A stretch of 22,583 nt of DNA. Source: a virus. The stretch lies in UHGV virus genome UHGV-1292143. The stretch is one strand, 5' to 3'. A program made the position numbers and the translations under genes. Shown here piece by piece: positions 1,539 to 21,986 of this stretch (position 1 is its first letter; each line of letters starts with the position of its first letter). The notes below the pieces were generated by a model, which had not been told where the DNA came from, ran no database searches, and worked only from the letters and a program-made list of their open reading frames with translations.

Positions 1539-2146
<608 letters not shown>

Positions 2147-2235
2147 ATGTCATTTGTCCATTGTGCCAACTGTTATTATGGATATCATAATTCATACGAA
2201 TCGCGCTGCTACAGGATGTATAGCAACCTTAATAA

Positions 2236-12502: not shown

Positions 12503-14008
12503 TTACTTAATAAGCAGCGGTACGCCCTGGATACGACGGGCTACGCCAGTCGGGCAGCAGGCCCAGACTACTTCCCATTTATCGAATTCCGCCTGCGTAA
12601 CTTTCAGCACATACGGTTCTGTACCGTCAGCATCAGGATCACGAGGAGCCACCAGAGCGCCGGAGGCGACAAAGCGATCCAAAAGTTTGGTCATCCCTTT
12701 AGTCAGGCCAGACTCAGTAATGCCGTCCGGGTTATGCTTCATCTGTCGGGCTAACTGGACAAAGAAACGGCTGATTGCGTTCATCAGGGATGGGACGTGC
12801 TGGAAATGCAGATAGTTGTCCTGCGTGCAGCAAGTTAAAGCATCATCGATGATCATCTGGCCCGAAGTACCTACAGATACTTTATTGAGTCGGCCCTTGA
12901 CCATAGCTTCTTCGTCCGGGGTGTCTTCAGGATACAGCGGCTGAAGTGATGCACGAGCAATGACGGCACGTTCTTCACCAGCCGGTGAGTAATGCCAACC
13001 GCCGACATCGGAGTTTTTCTTGACGCCACGAGCTTTCGCCGCATACGCCGCGCCAGACAGACCGAAGACCACGCGGGATTGGGTCCATTTGTCTTTGCAG
13101 GAGAACGGGAAATGATAGACAGCACAGCTTACATAATCGGTACCAAGTAAACCGGTATCTTCAACAGCAGAGATCGCCGCATTGTCATAGCAACCCAGGC
13201 CGAGAACAGCGGTGTGCATGTACGGCGCATTGTTCAGCACTTTCACCGCACGCAGGTAAGCAGCAGTGGAAATGTTCGACTGATCGCCGTTGGTACCGCC
13301 AGTGAACGCCAGCGATTTTTTATTTGTTACTTTCGCCGTCGAAATCAGCTCTTCATTAACAACCGCGCGCAGATATTTAGAACGGGCTTCCAGAGCCGTA
13401 GGCAGATAACACAAGCGGCCCATGTCATCTTTCGCTTCTTCCGCCAAAGACACAGTGTGTGTCTCCAGGGTCGTTACCACACCGAGCGAAGTCGTCTGGG
13501 TCAGTTTTAAGAGGAAGCGTTCATTACCCGCGCTGTCCGCTGTTGCCGTTTCGATGGTTAACTCACGGGTAGGAGAAATACACGGATCACCATCATCAAC
13601 GTAGATAGCAAAGGCTTCGCCGCTATCAAGTTCAATTTCAGAACCGTATGGCAACGCACTGTAAGCCGGTTCGCCTGATTCATCGAACATAATAATCGGG
13701 AACTTCGCATCATCCGGAACAGCACGGACAACATAACCAGACGTTTGCTGAATAGCTTCGTACACATGGCGAATTGGTTCGAACTGTGAGCCGGAGGACG
13801 GCTTCAGCGGTTCGCCGAGAACATCTTCGTAATTGGACTCAGTAACCGCAAGAACAGTAAACGGCTTGCCACGCGCAAATACGCCAATACCAGCCCACAA
13901 GCTGCTATTTAATGCAACACCGGTAGATAACGTCGCATCGGCATTGATCGGGCTAACAGCGACACCGGATGCATTACCTAATGACTGTTGAATTGAATAT
14001 TGAGACAT
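12503..14008 (-). CDS. large late structural protein (501 aa), possibly tail sheath
   Basis: Size and position between the head-precursor gene and tube-like genes; function is inferred from gene order only. Confidence 0.5.
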   Translation of the reverse strand: MSQYSIQQSLGNASGVAVSPINADATLSTGVALNSSLWAGIGVFARGKPFTVLAVTESNYEDVLGEPLKPSSGSQFEPIRHVYEAIQQTSGYVVRAVPDDAKFPIIMFDESGEPAYSALPYGSEIELDSGEAFAIYVDDGDPCISPTRELTIETATADSAGNERFLLKLTQTTSLGVVTTLETHTVSLAEEAKDDMGRLCYLPTALEARSKYLRAVVNEELISTAKVTNKKSLAFTGGTNGDQSNISTAAYLRAVKVLNNAPYMHTAVLGLGCYDNAAISAVEDTGLLGTDYVSCAVYHFPFSCKDKWTQSRVVFGLSGAAYAAKARGVKKNSDVGGWHYSPAGEERAVIARASLQPLYPEDTPDEEAMVKGRLNKVSVGTSGQMIIDDALTCCTQDNYLHFQHVPSLMNAISRFFVQLARQMKHNPDGITESGLTKGMTKLLDRFVASGALVAPRDPDADGTEPYVLKVTQAEFDKWEVVWACCPTGVARRIQGVPLLIK

Positions 14009-14023
14009 AACTTTCCCTGTTAT

Positions 14024-14041
14024 GCGCCCCGCACGGGGCGC
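14024..14041 (-). promoter_or_regulatory. perfect 8-bp GC stem hairpin between the head-precursor and sheath-like genes
   Basis: GCGCCCCG / CGGGGCGC with no downstream U-run; likely an mRNA-stability or attenuation element rather than a full terminator. Confidence 0.4.
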
Positions 14042-14067
14042 TATGTTAAACGGAGAACTTCCCCTGA

Positions 14068-15774
14068 TTACTCAGAGTCACCGGCATCAATCGTGTCGCT
14101 GCTTATAAAGTTAAGCCCGCCTTTTTTGGCCATTGTCAGCGTTACACGAGTGAAGTAATCAGCGCCGTTGCGTGGGTGCATATCGTTGATAGCCGAACCC
14201 CACAGCGTGGTACGGTTGACCAGCACCGGAGTGGTCGGATGCTGGAACGGGATGGCCGGGACAGCATCACCAGTCACGAAGCCTGCTTTACCCGGATTTT
14301 CATCACGGACGTAGCACAGCACATCCATCGAGCTGAACTGAATGTTCTCTGTCGTTAAGTTCTTACAAATACCAGCAGGTACTTCGTACACTTTCACGTT
14401 ACCGAACAGGGTACCGATGTAGTGAACATACGGAGTCTGGATATAGTCTTCGGCTGGCTGGAAGAAATCCTTCGGCAACTGTTTGAAGAAAGATGCTGCA
14501 TCAGCACCAGCAAACATCCCCATCGCACCAGAAGATTTAACGCGCTCAATAATGTCGCGATATACAGTCTGGAATTTGCCACGAATGATGGTTGCCCATA
14601 CATCAAAGGACTGGTTAACCGGCAGAGCGATGTCAAAGGTGTCGGTCGCAAGAGTACGCCAGATCATGATGCGAAGACGCAGCATATCCTGTTCATGAGA
14701 CAGGTATTCCTTCAGGGTGCGGAACTGTAGGGAACCCAGGTCCAGACCAAATTCACGCTGTGCTACATACGCCGCCTGTACCGTGTGCTCAGCCGCGATA
14801 ACGAACTGACTTGGGAACAGGGTGTATTTCTTCATTTCGTGGTTGATCAGCGGGATCAGCTCAGGAGCGGCTTCAATATTGATTTCCGTCTCAATTGCGA
14901 TCTCAGTGCCTTTATCCGGCGCTTTGGAGAACGACAGGGCAATCTGACCAATGTTGTAGTTCAGAGAGCAGGTAACAGTGATTTGCTCACCAGCAGCATT
15001 AGTAAACGAGTGAAGTAGGCTGCCGGAACCGTTATCAACAACAGACTTAATACGGTTAACGTAGATGTTAGTGCGACCTTTTCGGATTGGTACATTCTGG
15101 CCTTCGAAGTCTTCCATCTTGAAGGTTGCGGTTTTGCTGGTGCCATCGGAGCTTGCCACCAGCACATAGCGGCGACGTAACTGGCTGTACACACCGACGG
15201 ATTGCATGTCCAGAACATCACCAGCAGCATAAGAACCAAAAGATGAACCTGCCACGTTAAAGACTTCATAGATGTCGGACTGGTCACGCGTAACCGGAAT
15301 GAAGGTACACGCATCAGCGGTAGCTGCCCCCAACTGAACAGGCAGGATCATCGCGAGGAATAAAGGCAGACGCATAACACCGTCAGAAACGCTCATCATC
15401 TCTGCTGCGACGGATTCCAGCATCGCTTTATTAGTGGCATCCATGCTATTGCGGGTGGACTCAATCAGGCAGTTTTCCAGCGTCTGGTGGCAGGAGGCCA
15501 GAATTTCCGGACGCGGCATAGATTTATGTGCTGCGGCGTAGTCAGCCAGTGCACTTGCCCACGCTGTAGCGATTTGAGCGGTGGCATTATCAGAGATACC
15601 CGCAAAAACCGGGTCTTTACGTGCAGCTTCAAGGATAGATGCGGCACGCGCGGCATCATCTTTAATGAATTGGTTATCAGTACCGAACTGCGCAGTGCTT
15701 GCCCAGCCAAGCACAGCTTTAGAGCGTTTTGCGATATCTGCAATACGATTCTGGTATTCGCGTAAGTTACTCAA
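14068..15774 (-). CDS. major head protein precursor (P1 gp23-like) with helical N-terminal delta-like domain (about 568 aa)
   Basis: N-terminal ~150 aa are helical/Ala-rich, then a large beta-rich body. Probable TTG start at 15772-15774 with AAGGAAGAG Shine-Dalgarno; the track start at 15795 has none. Sits next to parS/parB as I recall for P1 gene 23. Confidence 0.55.
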   Translation of the reverse strand: MSNLREYQNRIADIAKRSKAVLGWASTAQFGTDNQFIKDDAARAASILEAARKDPVFAGISDNATAQIATAWASALADYAAAHKSMPRPEILASCHQTLENCLIESTRNSMDATNKAMLESVAAEMMSVSDGVMRLPLFLAMILPVQLGAATADACTFIPVTRDQSDIYEVFNVAGSSFGSYAAGDVLDMQSVGVYSQLRRRYVLVASSDGTSKTATFKMEDFEGQNVPIRKGRTNIYVNRIKSVVDNGSGSLLHSFTNAAGEQITVTCSLNYNIGQIALSFSKAPDKGTEIAIETEINIEAAPELIPLINHEMKKYTLFPSQFVIAAEHTVQAAYVAQREFGLDLGSLQFRTLKEYLSHEQDMLRLRIMIWRTLATDTFDIALPVNQSFDVWATIIRGKFQTVYRDIIERVKSSGAMGMFAGADAASFFKQLPKDFFQPAEDYIQTPYVHYIGTLFGNVKVYEVPAGICKNLTTENIQFSSMDVLCYVRDENPGKAGFVTGDAVPAIPFQHPTTPVLVNRTTLWGSAINDMHPRNGADYFTRVTLTMAKKGGLNFISSDTIDAGDSE

Positions 15775-15825
15775 TTTACTCTTCCTTAAACACAAGGCAC
15801 TTGTGTGAATCCCTTTTCGGAAGAG

Positions 15826-15854
15826 ATTTTATTGAAAGTCACTTGTTGACTTTC
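15826..15854 (-). promoter_or_regulatory. candidate late promoter: palindrome GAAAGTCA-N5-TGACTTTC with a TAAAAT -10 hexamer 2 bp downstream
   Basis: Seen on the minus strand about 50 nt upstream of the head-gene start. Architecture (palindrome around -22/-25 plus -10, no -35) resembles P1 Lpa-dependent late promoters as I recall them. Confidence 0.35.
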
Positions 15855-15914
15855 TCGCGAAAAGTAATTTTTTAAATTTTTTGTGCGGGGAAGTGGACGG
15901 TGAATGCAGGCGTT

Positions 15915-15990
15915 AAATCGTGGGAATTTCAGTCTGAAATTCTCCTAAAAAACACATGCAAATCATAAGGTTAGTAATGAAATTGGTGCG
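15915..15990. other. parS: candidate parS centromere
   Basis: Immediately downstream of parB: inverted heptamer-like boxes AATTTCAG-T-CTGAAATT (15925-15941), an IHF-like site AATCATAAGGTTA (15961-15973), then AATGAAATTGG; compare P1 parS box A ATTTCAC with an internal IHF site. Confidence 0.45.
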
Positions 15991-16038
15991 GGACATTTTA
16001 GGAAGGGGAGGGGCTAACACCACCTCCCACCAGCGGGA

Positions 16039-17004
16039 TTATTCCCCAGCAGACATTTTCCCAATGATTTTTTTTATTGCTTCGTCAATTTCAGTTTGCA
16101 CTTCAGACGGGAGTCTGGAGAACTCGTAGGCGACAACCCGTTTTTTCGGATCGGACTTCTTTCGAGCATATTGGCGACGGTCAGAGAAGTCTCGCAGCTT
16201 CTCAACCACCACAGATTTAACCGGCGCGGGCTTCAGGCTTTTGCTTTCCGCTTTGAAGATAGCCAGTATCTTCGCTTTATCCTCTTTCGCGCCCTCAGTC
16301 TCTGCAATTCGTTCGCGCACCGTATCAACCAGCTCTTCAATAGGCACGCTTTTAGCGTTGGCATCCTCGGAGATCTGGAGCAGTAACTGGTAATCTGGCA
16401 GGGCGAGATCGCTGGCAACAGGGAAGACAGCAATCATCTCATCCGGCACCGCTGCCGCCTGGAACGCGCGCGTAACTTTAGCCTTTGAAATGTTCTCAGC
16501 GCGGGCGATCTCTTCTTTGGTCATGCTCTTACCATACATAACCTCGAAGCGTTTACCCAGTTCGCGCAGGGTGTGTTCGCGGGCTGTCTGGATATCAATG
16601 GCCAGCTGGCGTGCATCCGCCAGGCTGATCTCATCTTTCGTCACCAGAATCTCAAATTTCGTTTCATTGAAGATACACGCAGCGCGGCGACGTGATCCGT
16701 CCAATACCTCAATGCGCTCCCCAACCATACGACCGATAGCCGGGAAGAACTGTTGCAATTTAATGGTGCGGGAAATATCGCTTACCGACTCAGGGGTGAG
16801 CAGAGACTGATCGCGGCCGTTAACTGCCGGGTCAACGAACGTGCGCGACTCAATCTCACCACTCAGCACAACGGTAAGCAAAAATTTAGCCTGGCGGCCA
16901 GATTTTAGGGTAAAGGTTTTGGTGCCTTCACTGCCTTCAAGCATGCGAGCAAACTCGGAGCTATTCTTGCCCAGCACTCGTCCACGGGAAACTATTTTTT
17001 TCAT
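16039..17004 (-). CDS. parB: ParB partition protein, P1/P7 type (321 aa)
   Basis: Core ...FFPAIGRMVGERIEVLDGSRRRAACIF...KAKVTRAFQAAAVPDEMIAVFP... aligns with P1 ParB by eye at roughly 50% identity; ATGA overlap with the parA stop. Confidence 0.85.
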   Translation of the reverse strand: MKKIVSRGRVLGKNSSEFARMLEGSEGTKTFTLKSGRQAKFLLTVVLSGEIESRTFVDPAVNGRDQSLLTPESVSDISRTIKLQQFFPAIGRMVGERIEVLDGSRRRAACIFNETKFEILVTKDEISLADARQLAIDIQTAREHTLRELGKRFEVMYGKSMTKEEIARAENISKAKVTRAFQAAAVPDEMIAVFPVASDLALPDYQLLLQISEDANAKSVPIEELVDTVRERIAETEGAKEDKAKILAIFKAESKSLKPAPVKSVVVEKLRDFSDRRQYARKKSDPKKRVVAYEFSRLPSEVQTEIDEAIKKIIGKMSAGE

Positions 17005-18212
17005 GCCGCCTCACCCCTAACAAACTCAATTCGATCAAACACAGCCTTAGTGAAACGCTCGGCCTCGGTTCGTGCCTTCTTCAGCGCCTCTGCACTGCCT
17101 GGATACGATTGCGGGTTGGCACTGATTACGGTGTCGAAAGACTCGCCGCATCGCTCAAATCCATCCAGACGAGGCAGAGAAGAGTCCAGAATGTTGCTGG
17201 CGTAAACCTCACGCGCAAGGCTGTGTGATGTCTCGTGATCGCGCTTGCCGGTCATCTTCGACATAAAACCAATGCTGGCGCTTAAACGCGGTTCTACGCC
17301 TTCCTCCTCCAGTTGCTCCAGCATTTCTGGCAGACGGGTGAGATATTTCAGTGTTGAGTGGAAGTCAACCTGGGCTGGTGGGGTAGGGGTAAGCAGCAAA
17401 TCGCTGGCCGCCAGACCGTTGAGCAGGAACGGATCCAGGTGTGGACCGGTATCAATAAAGATAAAGTCATAATCATCCGCAACACGATCAATGATATTGC
17501 GTCGAAGGATTTCGTACTGATTTTGTCCGGGAAGATGCTCTTCAACCAGCTCTTTCCATTGGCTGGCAACAAAGCCATCGTCGATAGAGGCTGGAATCAC
17601 GTCTACGCCAGGAACGATGGTCGGACGAATCACCTCTTTGCGTAGCGTCTCCGCGTCCAAGTCGTTCAGCATCGCCTGCGCGGCGGTTTCCAGGATGGAA
17701 CCAATACTGTGAGTATGGTCGAGGAACATTGTGCTGGATGCCTGAGGGTCAAGGTCAATTACCAGAATGCGCAGATCGTGACGCAGTAAATCCTGATGCA
17801 CACGCAGAGCGTGCGCCAACGTGACTGTGGAAACCGTTTTGGATACGCCACCCTTCAGGTTTACGACAAAAATAACGTAAGGCGATTTGTGAATGTCGCG
17901 ATATTTTGGGATCTTACGGTGGGCATAGATATCAATGACGTTCTGGATGGTCAGCGCGTACTGTTCAACGTTACCGACCTGTTTCTTGTTGAACTGGTAC
18001 CCATCATCTTCCATCTCTTTGATGGCCTGCTCCACAATGCGGCGGCTCAGCTTCGGCAACTTTGCCACAGCGTTACGAGTGAACGTCTGATAATACTCGG
18101 TCTGATTGAACTCTTTGCGCTGATCTTCAATATCCTGACTCATGGCCTTAAGTAATGCGCTTGCACGAAGAGCTATGGTGCCGACACCGCCGTAATCGCG
18201 TTTCATCATCAT
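17001..18212 (-). CDS. parA: ParA partition ATPase, type Ia with N-terminal DNA-binding extension (about 400 aa)
   Basis: Deviant Walker A NLKGGVSKTVST, plus ...RILVIDLDPQ..., ...GFMSK..., LPRLDGFERCGESFDTVISANP; three consecutive ATGs at 18204-18212 behind an AAGGAG Shine-Dalgarno. Confidence 0.9.
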   Translation of the reverse strand: MMMKRDYGGVGTIALRASALLKAMSQDIEDQRKEFNQTEYYQTFTRNAVAKLPKLSRRIVEQAIKEMEDDGYQFNKKQVGNVEQYALTIQNVIDIYAHRKIPKYRDIHKSPYVIFVVNLKGGVSKTVSTVTLAHALRVHQDLLRHDLRILVIDLDPQASSTMFLDHTHSIGSILETAAQAMLNDLDAETLRKEVIRPTIVPGVDVIPASIDDGFVASQWKELVEEHLPGQNQYEILRRNIIDRVADDYDFIFIDTGPHLDPFLLNGLAASDLLLTPTPPAQVDFHSTLKYLTRLPEMLEQLEEEGVEPRLSASIGFMSKMTGKRDHETSHSLAREVYASNILDSSLPRLDGFERCGESFDTVISANPQSYPGSAEALKKARTEAERFTKAVFDRIEFVRGEAA

Positions 18213-21621: not shown

Positions 21622-21906
21622 CTAACTTACCTGAACCAGGCCGTCTCCGGACGCTACGGTAGATCCGCATGAAACAGGGTCACCAACGCATACGATCCCT
21701 TTACCATTGACGGTAAACCATGCCCTGGTTGATATAGCTTGCCCACCGTGCGTACTGTTTCCATCGGTATGCTGTGCATATTGCTTACCATCAACTAACA
21801 CTTCGACTCCGTTGACTTTAAGTAGTGGTTCACTCTCTACAGGAGGCCTGGATGGGAATCCTCCGTGCCCCGAACAAATGCTGTCTTTTGTTGCAATACT
21901 TGCCAC
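21622..21906 (-). CDS. PAAR-like spike-tip protein (94 aa)
   Basis: Three repeats of the PAAR-type motif (ATKDSICSGHGG; AQHTDGNSTHGG; VCVGDPVSCGSTVASGDG); GTG start. Confidence 0.55.
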   Translation of the reverse strand: MASIATKDSICSGHGGFPSRPPVESEPLLKVNGVEVLVDGKQYAQHTDGNSTHGGQAISTRAWFTVNGKGIVCVGDPVSCGSTVASGDGLVQVS

Positions 21907-21986
21907 GTCATCACCAATTATTTGCTCTGGTTTTCGTTATTTTAACTTAGGTTACTTGTGGTCTAAATGGCGTCAACTATTGCATA

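What the first reader, a model, noticed from the sequence alone, without database searches (positions are those of the whole stretch)
15772..15860. Head-precursor gene probably starts at TTG, behind a palindromic late-promoter-like element
The only good ribosome-binding site (AAGGAAGAG) precedes a TTG at 15772-15774, not the track start at 15795. Upstream is GAAAGTCA-N5-TGACTTTC followed by TAAAAT with no -35, the layout expected for activator-dependent late promoters. The N-terminal ~150 aa look like a scaffold-type delta domain that would be removed on maturation.
Basis: partly seen in the sequence, partly recalled or inferred. Interest (0 to 1): 0.35.

Follow-up and report, generated by a model that had tools for sequence, protein, structure and literature searches.

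The report
Known P1 capsid gene start and promoter

Summary
The window is a P1/P7-like punavirus, 97-99% identical to P1 and P7. All features lie on the minus strand.

- **Start codon.** The TTG at 15774..15772 follows AAGGAAGAG (15787..15779). It is exactly the start annotated for gene 23 in P1 and P7. Orthologues down to 37% identity begin at the same place.
- **Promoter.** The palindrome GAAAGTCA-N5-TGACTTTC (15854..15834) and TAAAAT (15831..15826) are real. The conserved unit, however, is the canonical P1 late-promoter box AAGTGACTT (15844..15836), then N4, then the -10. This is annotated as LP23. It has been used experimentally as an Lpa-dependent reporter promoter.
- **Extended palindrome.** The other ten P1 late promoters lack the 21-bp palindrome. 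Some diverged orthologues have lost its outer half.
- **Delta domain.** It is published: cryo-EM does not resolve residues 1-124, and Pro cleaves the N-terminus. Its length is about 120 aa (invariant MLE120|S), not about 150.

Verdict: correct reading, already known, low interest.

One unreported possibility remains. The 7 nt between the -10 and the predicted +1 (CTCTTCC) are perfectly complementary to the Shine-Dalgarno sequence. Read-through RNA from parAB would therefore be translationally silent and LP23 RNA active, as in T4 late genes. The second late promoter in the window, LPsit, shows this design more convincingly.

The parts
14068..15774 (-). Gene 23, major capsid protein precursor: 568 aa, 62.3 kDa, TTG start at 15774..15772, stop included.
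   Evidence: ORF and translation. The P1 and P7 CDS have the same start and length. About 99% identical to PDB 9ukm Gp23, differing at 3 residues.
15415..15774 (-). Codons 1-120: N-terminal delta (scaffolding) domain, removed on maturation. The likely cleavage is after the invariant E120 in MLE|S.
   Evidence: Cryo-EM does not resolve residues 1-124, and Pro processing is reported (PMC12810830). E120 is invariant and M118 nearly so in 17 orthologues. The AF2 model predicts helices at 4-25, 40-52, 62-83, 89-108 and 115-119, at low confidence. The mature protein would be 49.3 kDa.
15779..15787 (-). Shine-Dalgarno sequence AAGGAAGAG, 4 nt before the TTG.
   Evidence: Sequence. Nearly invariant in 78 close relatives. 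Orthologues carry an SD at the equivalent place.
15826..15844 (-). Late promoter LP23: -22 box AAGTGACTT (15844..15836), spacer TCAA (15835..15832), -10 TAAAAT (15831..15826).
   Evidence: Exact match to AAGTNACTT-N4-TANNNT. Identical to the annotated LP23 of P1 and P7. Fits the alignment of the 11 P1 late promoters. Used as an Lpa-dependent reporter (PMC8546580).
15834..15854 (-). Its right arm overlaps the Lpa box; the left arm contains the conserved TCAAC that flanks the box.
   Evidence: the repeat finder I3. Not present at the other P1 late promoters. Outer half of the left arm lost in JK004, L131 and L185.
15817..15819 (-). Predicted transcription start of LP23, 7-9 nt after the -10. G15818 would put the box centre at -22. 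Not mapped experimentally.
   Evidence: Inferred from promoter geometry. Distant orthologues keep a -10-like hexamer about 7 nt before a conserved (C/T)(G/C)AAAAG motif.
15819..15825 (-). CTCTTCC between the -10 and the predicted +1. It is perfectly complementary to the SD core GGAAGAG (15785..15779), so it is a candidate anti-SD present only in read-through RNA.
   Evidence: the repeat finder I1. The MFE of the long RNA pairs it with the SD. Unpaired probability of the SD core is 0.17 in read-through RNA and 0.76 in LP23-initiated RNA. Only 0.07% of random 7-mers match as well.
15790..15806 (-). Leader hairpin ACACAAG-TGC-CTTGTGT. The non-used TTG (15795..15793) lies in its 3' arm.
   Evidence: the repeat finder I5; folds.
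16039..17004 (-). parB, with parS between it and LP23. This prophage-expressed operon lies upstream on the same strand.
   Evidence: ORF list; P1 and P7 annotation. No terminator-like site before gene 23.

Best explanation
This is the 5' end of the P1/P7 late operon that begins with gene 23 (major capsid protein).

- **Transcription.** In lytic growth the phage activator Lpa, together with host RNA polymerase, uses the -35-less late promoter LP23. LP23 consists of the box AAGTGACTT centred near -22, a 4-nt spacer and the -10 TAAAAT. Transcription is predicted to start at about 15818 and to give a leader of about 44 nt.
- **Translation.** Ribosomes bind AAGGAAGAG and initiate at TTG 15774. The product is a 568-aa, 62-kDa precursor.
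- **Maturation.** Its helical N-terminal ~120 residues act as an internal scaffold (delta domain). The prohead protease Pro removes them, probably after E120, leaving an HK97/T4-gp23-type mature capsid protein.

Shown here or in the literature: sequence identity with annotated P1 and P7, conservation of the start, Lpa-dependent reporter use of LP23, and absence of residues 1-124 from the capsid structure. Inferred: the exact +1, the exact cleavage bond, and use of TTG rather than another codon.
For: - Identity of the window. It is 97-99% identical to P1 and P7.
- Annotation. P1 and P7 place the gene 23 CDS start and LP23 (-22 region plus -10) at exactly these bases.
- Promoter match. LP23 matches the late-promoter pattern with no mismatch, as only LPs and LPdar otherwise do in P1.
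- Experimental use. A 'PL23' reporter plasmid is described as dependent on Lpa and reports the lytic pathway (PMC8546580). P1 has 11 late promoters with a conserved 9-bp inverted repeat described as the Lpa site (PMC10695390).
- Own promoter. CRISPRi targeting of parA or parB leaves plating unaffected although gene 23 is essential, and that paper reports polar CRISPRi effects. This fits a promoter downstream of parB.
- No alternative signals. No sigma-70-type promoter is found in the intergenic region.
- Start codon. The SD is at optimal spacing. Orthologue N-termini coincide. JK004 has an in-frame TGA upstream. Start codons at this position are TTG, ATG or GTG in different lineages. The PDB sequences 9ukm and 9vl4 begin MSNLREYQ.
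- Delta domain. PMC12810830, invariant E120, helical prediction.
Against: - In P1 the promoter is annotated only as 'predicted', and I found no mapped 5' end in the searchable literature.
- The start codon has no direct protein evidence. It cannot have any from virions, because the N-terminus is cleaved off.
- Pfam gives no hit for the window protein at E <= 0.01, although some orthologues carry weak PF07068 (Gp23) hits.
- The AF2 model is of low confidence (mean pLDDT 57).
- lpa and pro are not in this window, so their presence in this particular element is assumed from its near-identity to P1 and P7.
Confidence: 0.9

Rival explanations
1. Translation starts at the upstream TTG (15795..15793), the longest-ORF start, which would add seven residues (MCLRKSK).
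For: It is the first ATG/GTG/TTG after the in-frame stop, so the mechanical ORF list reports it.
Against: - No SD is at a usable distance.
- The codon lies in the 3' arm of a 7-bp hairpin.
- The curated P1 and P7 annotations do not use it.
- The seven extra residues have no counterpart in any orthologue.
- JK004 has an in-frame TGA between the equivalent positions.
Confidence: 0.03
2. The full 21-bp palindrome GAAAGTCA-N5-TGACTTTC is itself a functional unit: a dimeric-protein operator, or an RNA hairpin in par read-through transcripts. On this view it is not an accident of the Lpa box and its TCAAC flank.
For: - The arms are a perfect 8 bp.
- The left arm lies inside the block that is nearly invariant in 78 close relatives, with variation starting just upstream of it.
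- Three relatives at 80% identity keep the left arm (L027, L117, L120).
- It forms a stable hairpin in the fold of the long RNA.
Against: - None of the other ten P1 late promoters has it.
- JK004, L131 and L185 have GTTTGTCA or GCTTGTCA, and L027 has TTGC in the right arm. All of these keep the box, spacer and -10.
- Two close relatives carry C to T in the last base of the right arm.
- 8-bp inverted repeats are not rare in the window.
- It is not followed by a T-run, so it is not a terminator.
Confidence: 0.1
3. Gene 23 is expressed mainly from upstream transcription, either par operon read-through or the sigma-70 promoters 'P1 23' and 'P2 23' predicted in the P1 record, rather than from LP23.
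For: - The P1 record lists two predicted sigma-70 promoters in parS and the intergenic region.
- No terminator-like site lies between parB and gene 23.
Against: - The scan finds no sigma-70-type promoter in the window's intergenic region.
- The -35 hexamer of 'P1 23' (TTGTCA in P1) reads TTTTCG here.
- CRISPRi targeting of parA or parB has no effect on plating although gene 23 is essential (PMC10695390).
- The LP23 reporter is described as Lpa-dependent (PMC8546580).
- Read-through RNA is predicted to have its SD sequestered.
Confidence: 0.05
4. Add-on to the main explanation, not exclusive of it. LP23 sits inside the 5' arm of an SD-occluding structure, so only LP23-initiated mRNA is translatable. 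Read-through RNA from the prophage-expressed par operon would be translationally silent, and possibly terminated by Rho.
For: - CTCTTCC (-7..-1) and GGAAGAG (SD) form a perfect 7-bp match.
- Unpaired probability of the SD core is 0.17 in long RNA and 0.76 in short RNA. In the group at 80% identity it is 0.01-0.39 against 0.68-0.80.
- That group has a different SD (AGGACAA) with a correspondingly different discriminator (TTGTCCT or GTCCT).
- Orthologues at 56-62% identity that keep P1-type promoters have CGAGCC/GGCTCG and variants at the same position.
- LPsit in this window shows the same design strongly and with a compensatory change.
- The T4 precedent is established (PMC3014915).
Against: - Against random P1 31-mers the LP23 duplex is unremarkable (p = 0.31), as it is against shuffled upstream sequence (p = 0.36).
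- Across all 11 P1 late promoters only LPsit and LPpac stand out.
- Covariation in the short-leader group is not significant: four of six pairs are invariant and 301 of 500 shuffles score as well. The model predicts no accessibility switch in that group.
- L020 lacks the complementarity, and L013 breaks it with one SD substitution.
- The +1 is not mapped.
- A composition-preserving null gives only about 1 in 35 for the P1 7-mer (my own permutation count, not a tool result).
Confidence: 0.35

Closest known systems
Bacteriophage P1 gene 23 and late promoter LP23 (NC_005856 57067..58773 and 58825..58843), and the same features in P7 (AF503408)
   Same: The sequence from CGAGAAAGTCA through the start codon is identical to P1; P7 differs at one base just before the TTG. 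It has the same TTG start, the same 568-aa product (3 substitutions relative to P1) and the same position downstream of parB and parS.
   Different: Upstream of the promoter the window follows the P7-type parS/parB sequence rather than P1. The P1 'P1 23' -35 hexamer is not conserved here.
P1 Lpa-dependent late promoters (LPs, LPdar, LPlyz, LPsit, LPpac, LP26, LPmat, LPpro, LPhot, LPpmgL)
   Same: The same architecture: a (T)NAC flank, the 9-bp box AAGTNACTT, a 4-nt spacer, a TANNNT -10 and no -35. LP23 is a perfect-consensus member.
   Different: Only LP23 has the extended 8+5+8 palindrome. LP23 is still labelled 'predicted' in the record, and I found no mapped start for it in the searchable literature.
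Capsid proteins with a fused N-terminal scaffolding (delta) domain: HK97 gp5 and T5 pb8. T4 gp23, cleaved by the gp21 protease, is a further comparison.
   Same: A helical N-terminal region of about 100-160 aa that a prohead protease removes during maturation. P1 has no separate scaffold gene. The mature part has an HK97 fold with a T4-like insertion domain (PMC12810830). The candidate cleavage motif MLE|S resembles the T4 (L/I)xE motif (my own knowledge; motif positions).
   Different: The exact cleavage bond is not established by anything I could read. Pfam gives no hit for the window protein.
T4 genes e, soc, 49 and I-TevI: a late promoter lies inside the 5' arm of an RBS-sequestering hairpin
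   Same: The sequence complementary to the SD lies at or upstream of the late transcription start. Long transcripts would therefore occlude the SD and late transcripts would not (PMC3014915).
   Different: In T4 this has been demonstrated experimentally. Here it is only predicted, and for LP23 the single-sequence statistics are weak. P1 uses an activator-dependent sigma-70 promoter, not a gp55 promoter.

Membership tests
P1-type Lpa-dependent late promoter | 9-bp inverted-repeat box AAGTNACTT centred about -22 | tested here: met
   AAGTGACTT at 15844..15836, with no mismatch. Identical to the annotated -22 region of LP23.
P1-type Lpa-dependent late promoter | -10 hexamer TANNNT 4 nt downstream of the box, and no -35 hexamer | tested here: met
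   TCAA spacer followed by TAAAAT at 15831..15826. The sigma-70 scan finds nothing in 15650..16150.
P1-type Lpa-dependent late promoter | Located upstream of a late (morphogenesis, lysis or packaging) operon | tested here: met
   It lies 51 nt upstream of gene 23, which is followed by 22 (sheath) and 21 on the same strand.
P1-type Lpa-dependent late promoter | Activity depends on Lpa (gp10) | not testable with these tools
   Reported for P1 'PL23' reporter plasmids (PMC8546580). lpa is not in this window.
P1-type Lpa-dependent late promoter | Transcription start about 7 nt downstream of the -10 | not testable with these tools
   No 5'-end data found. Distant orthologues keep a -10-like hexamer about 7 nt before a conserved CGAAAAG-type motif.
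P1 gp23 / T4-gp23-like HK97-fold major capsid protein | Sequence identity to a structurally solved capsid protein | tested here: met
   The 568-aa alignment to PDB 9ukm/9vl4 Gp23 shows 3 differences. The HK97 fold with an insertion domain is described in PMC12810830.
P1 gp23 / T4-gp23-like HK97-fold major capsid protein | Pfam PF07068 (Gp23) match | tested here: not met
   No Pfam family at E <= 0.01 for the window protein. Only weak precomputed hits exist on some orthologues. The family assignment rests on the solved structure, not on Pfam.
Capsid protein with N-terminal delta (scaffolding) domain | The N-terminal segment is absent from the mature capsid and is removed by the prohead protease | not testable with these tools
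   From the literature: residues 1-124 are unresolved, and processing by Pro is cited (PMC12810830).
Capsid protein with N-terminal delta (scaffolding) domain | Predominantly helical or coiled-coil N-terminal region, followed by a conserved cleavage motif | tested here: met
   Five helices are predicted within residues 4-119, at low pLDDT. E120 is invariant and M118 nearly invariant. MLE|S sits at 118-121.
Authentic start codon | SD at 4-9 nt, a conserved N-terminus, and no conserved coding sequence upstream | tested here: met
   AAGGAAGAG-TAAA-TTG. N-termini align across 17 sequences. An in-frame TGA lies upstream in JK004. Leader sequences diverge while the coding sequence is conserved.
T4-type late-promoter-in-hairpin translational gating | SD paired in transcripts that start upstream and free in late-promoter transcripts | tested here: inconclusive
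   Predicted for the window and for the group at 80% identity. Not predicted for the short-leader group. Not significant against random 31-mers. No significant covariation.
T4-type late-promoter-in-hairpin translational gating | Upstream transcription actually reads into the gene | not testable with these tools
   The par operon lies on the same strand and no terminator-like site is found. There are no RNA data.

The most novel reading that the evidence does not exclude
The late promoters of P1-type phages may be built into translational insulators, as in T4.

At LP23 the seven bases between the -10 and +1 (CTCTTCC, 15825..15819) form a perfect anti-Shine-Dalgarno sequence. RNA entering gene 23 from the prophage-expressed parAB operon would then be translationally silent, and possibly terminated by Rho. 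RNA initiated at LP23 lacks the anti-SD and would be translated.

The second late promoter in the window, LPsit, has a 10-11-bp version: CTCGTAGAAT(C) pairs with (G)ATTCTACGAG over the pmgC SD. Relatives show a compensatory G-C to A-U change inside the -10 hexamer itself. I found no description of this for P1 in the searchable literature.
Probability: 0.35. Interest if true: 0.4.

Novelty: already known. Interest (0 to 1): 0.12.

Why it matters
For annotation, the result is simple. Automated longest-ORF calls for P1-like prophages should start the capsid gene at the TTG (window 15774), not seven codons upstream. The promoter should be labelled LP23.

Biologically nothing new follows from the finding as written.

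The one point that could matter is the possible anti-SD design. It would explain how a plasmid prophage keeps structural genes silent when they lie directly downstream of constitutively transcribed maintenance operons (par, sim) with no terminator in between. It would also extend a T4 paradigm to a temperate, activator-dependent system.

Tried and rejected
- **General anti-SD rule for all P1 late promoters.**
  - The SD-accessibility test with shuffled upstream sequence found only LPsit significant (p = 0.015), with LP23 at p = 0.36.
  - The duplex-energy test against random P1 31-mers found LPsit (z = -5.6) and LPpac (p = 0.02), with LP23 at p = 0.31 and a summed z that is not significant.
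  - I therefore rejected this as a general rule.
- **Covariation in the short-leader orthologues.**
  - 94% of cells are paired, but four of six pairs are invariant and 301 of 500 shuffles score as well.
  - This gives no statistical support.
- **Extended palindrome as the conserved unit.** Rejected, because the other late promoters lack it and diverged orthologues have lost its outer half.
- **Rfam.** No family matches in 15600..16100 at E <= 1.
- **Pfam.** No hit on the protein.
- **Primary P1 genome paper.** It could not be read, because the library does not hold it.
- **Literature on a mapped LP23 start or a P1 leader hairpin.** Nothing found.
- **Phage D6.**
  - Its pmgC has no promoter in front of it.
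  - Its capsid-gene leader is of the distant type.
  - D6 was therefore uninformative for the P1-type box.
- **Structure prediction.** The full-protein model is low confidence (mean pLDDT 57), so I used only its secondary structure and ran no fold search.
Full report
**What the window is.**
A megablast of 14000..16100 finds P1, P7 and other punaviruses at 97-99% identity. The features in the finding lie on the minus strand. The surrounding genes, all on the minus strand, are:
- parA (17001..18212) and parB (16039..17004), followed by parS;
- a 264-nt non-coding interval;
- the capsid gene (14068..15774);
- the sheath gene 22 (12503..14008) and gene 21.

**Checking the observation.**
Read on the minus strand, the interval contains:
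- GAAAGTCA (15854..15847), ACAAG, TGACTTTC (15841..15834)
- AA, then TAAAAT (15831..15826)
- a 38-nt stretch, then AAGGAAGAG (15787..15779), TAAA, TTG (15774..15772)

The repeat finder reports the 8-bp arms as perfect. The longest-ORF start, the 'track start', is another in-frame TTG at 15795..15793. The in-frame stop that bounds the ORF is the TAA inside TAAAAT. No sigma-70-type promoter and no intrinsic terminator is found between parB and the gene.

An 8-bp inverted repeat alone is not unusual. There are 18 hits (about 11 distinct repeats) in the window, against a mean of 4.5 in shuffles. The statistically meaningful signal is the zero-mismatch match to AAGTNACTT-N4-TANNNT. It is unique in the window and shared by only two other sites in the 94.8-kb P1 genome, the established promoters LPs and LPdar.

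**The start codon.**
- The P1 RefSeq record starts gene 23 ('major capsid protein', 568 aa) at exactly this TTG, and so does P7. The DNA from the promoter through codon 15 is identical to P1; P7 differs at one base just before the TTG.
- The PDB entries for P1 Gp23 begin MSNLREYQ.
- An alignment of 17 orthologues at 37-80% identity, from Salmonella, Cronobacter, Pantoea, Nissabacter, Citrobacter, Xenorhabdus and others, shows all N-termini within one or two residues of this position.
- In Cronobacter phage JK004 the equivalent TTG is preceded five codons upstream by an in-frame TGA. The longer reading is therefore impossible there.
- Different lineages use TTG, ATG or GTG at this position.
- The upstream TTG (15795) has no SD and lies in the 3' arm of the hairpin ACACAAG/CTTGTGT.

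One practical correction: virion N-terminal sequencing cannot test it, because the N-terminus is removed.

**The promoter.**
P1 and P7 annotate 'predicted late promoter LP23' with a -22 region and a -10. These map to window 15844..15836 (AAGTGACTT) and 15831..15826 (TAAAAT). I extracted the 11 annotated P1 late promoters. They share (T)NAC-AAGTGACTT-N4-TANNNT, and LP23 is a perfect example.

Its centre (15844) lies 4 bp upstream of the centre of the 9-bp box (15840). Its right arm overlaps the right half of the box, and its left arm contains the conserved TCAAC flank. Three observations show it is not the conserved unit:
- None of the other ten promoters has such an extension.
- In relatives at 80% protein identity, the box, spacer and -10 are kept while the outer left arm changes (GTTTGTCA or GCTTGTCA) or the right arm changes (TTGC).
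- Relatives at 56-62% identity keep a P1-type box (ATGTAACTT) with a different flank.

The functional element is therefore the known box, described as the Lpa-binding site (PMC10695390). The long palindrome is most likely incidental, although in 78 close relatives the left arm lies inside the nearly invariant block.

Functional support comes from the literature. [quoted passage not shown] CRISPRi targeting of parA or parB does not reduce plating although gene 23 is essential, and that paper reports polar CRISPRi effects; this fits a promoter downstream of parB (PMC10695390). I found no mapped 5' end. By geometry, +1 should be at about 15818, which places the box centre at -22.

**The delta domain.**
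The 2026 cryo-EM study of P1 reports that the N-terminal 124 residues of gp23 are not resolved. It says this is consistent with processing by the prohead protease Pro, that the region is predicted as a coiled coil like the HK97 and T5 scaffolding domains, and that P1 lacks a separate scaffold protein (PMC12810830).

Results here agree. E120 is invariant and M118 nearly so in the orthologue alignment. The motif MLE|S sits at 118-121. A low-confidence AF2 model predicts helices through residue 119. Cleavage after E120 would give 13.0-kDa and 49.3-kDa products.

**Something the annotation does not say.**
The seven bases between the -10 and the predicted +1, CTCTTCC (15825..15819), are the exact complement of the SD core GGAAGAG (15785..15779).
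- An RNA starting upstream folds with these paired. RNAs starting at 15819 or 15818 leave the SD open.
- The unpaired probability of the SD core is 0.17 in long RNA and 0.76 in short RNA.
- The par operon lies upstream on the same strand with no terminator-like site.

This is the design known from T4 genes e, soc, 49 and I-TevI (PMC3014915).

Comparative evidence is mixed.
- For: the lineage at 80% identity has a different SD (AGGACAA) and a matching discriminator (TTGTCCT in L185, GTCCT in the others), with a predicted switch of 0.01-0.39 to 0.68-0.80.
- Partly for: the lineage at 56-62% identity has CGAGCC/GGCTCG, AAAGCC/GGCTTT and CAAGCC/GGCTTG directly after the -10. However, covariation there is not significant and no accessibility switch is predicted.
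- Against: Pantoea L020 lacks the complementarity, and Kluyvera L013 breaks it with one substitution.
- Against: single-sequence tests with longer upstream segments are not significant for LP23 (p = 0.31-0.36).
- Against: across all 11 P1 late promoters the pattern is not general. Only LPsit and LPpac stand out.

LPsit, also in this window, is a much stronger case. CTCGTAGAAT(C) (2146..2136, the spacer, the -10 and one further base) pairs with (G)ATTCTACGAG (2122..2112), which overlaps the pmgC SD. The duplex energy is -19.7 kcal/mol, z = -5.6. In JK004/Salmonella-type relatives the -10 is TAAAAT and the downstream arm is ATTTTACGAG. That is a compensatory G-C to A-U change, while the loop varies freely across 80 contigs.

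I rate the anti-SD reading for LP23 at about 0.35. It is an add-on to the main explanation, not an alternative to it.

**Comparison with what is known, and verdict.**
The finding is the P1 gene 23 start, LP23 and the gp23 propeptide. All are annotated or published, so the novelty class is 'already known'.
- The 9-bp box, not the 21-bp palindrome, is the conserved element.
- The propeptide is about 120 aa.
- The proposed virion-protein test cannot work.

Interest is low. The only open, modestly interesting thread is the possible promoter-embedded anti-SD, which needs 5'-end mapping and translational fusions.

Noticed in passing
window 2112..2155 (minus strand), upstream of pmgC (ATG 2105..2103): The late promoter LPsit has box AAATGACAT, spacer CTCG and -10 TAGAAT. 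Its spacer, -10 and one further base, CTCGTAGAAT(C), are perfectly complementary to (G)ATTCTACGAG, which overlaps the pmgC Shine-Dalgarno sequence (-19.7 kcal/mol, z = -5.6 against random P1 31-mers). JK004/Salmonella-type relatives have TAAAAT paired with ATTTTACGAG, a compensatory change, while the loop varies. This looks like a T4-style design in which the late promoter lies inside an RBS-occluding hairpin.
   Followed up: partly
window 21939..21957 (minus strand): AAGTAACCT-aagt-TAAAAT has one mismatch to the late-promoter pattern. It lies 32 nt upstream of the GTG of the upfC-like ORF (21622..21906). P1 NC_005856 has no equivalent at one mismatch or fewer, and no late promoter is annotated there. 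It may be an extra late promoter in this lineage.
   Followed up: partly
window 12503..14008 (minus strand): The tail-sheath gene 22 encodes 501 aa instead of 529. It has an in-frame 28-aa deletion matching P1 gp22 residues 282-309 and is otherwise about 98% identical. I do not know whether the sheath is functional.
   Followed up: partly
L010-L012, L014-L019, L021, L022, L025, L028, L191 (capsid-gene leaders of relatives at 42-61% identity): These relatives lack the P1-type box but share two features. One is a -10-like hexamer about 7 nt before a conserved (C/T)(G/C)AAAAG motif. The other is a local hairpin pairing CCCU/CCUU with the SD (for example GCCCT-gaatta-AGGGC). One subgroup shares an upstream motif GTACAAACCGC, possibly the site for a different late activator.
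   Followed up: no
L023, L024, L026, L110, L111 (orthologues at 56-62% identity): In these relatives a strong terminator-like GC hairpin with a T-run (for example AAAGGCGCGAAAGCGCCTTTTTCTTT) lies about 40-50 nt upstream of the P1-type late promoter of the capsid gene. The window and P1 have no terminator between parB and gene 23.
   Followed up: no
window 15764..15782 (plus strand): A one-mismatch match to the late-promoter pattern (AAGTTACTC-aatt-TACTCT) lies antisense across the gene 23 start codon. It is also present in P1 and is probably chance.
   Followed up: no
window 15924..15942: The perfect 9-bp inverted repeat GAATTTCAG-a-CTGAAATTC is the known pair of ParB box-A sites of parS, in the P7-type sequence. 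It is not part of the promoter.
   Followed up: yes
L013 (Kluyvera cryocrescens contig) and about 11 IMG/VR loci: Natural variants exist in the otherwise invariant leader. L013 has SD GGATGAG instead of GGAAGAG. About 11 loci have AACTTG instead of AAATTG directly before the start codon, as in P7.
   Followed up: no
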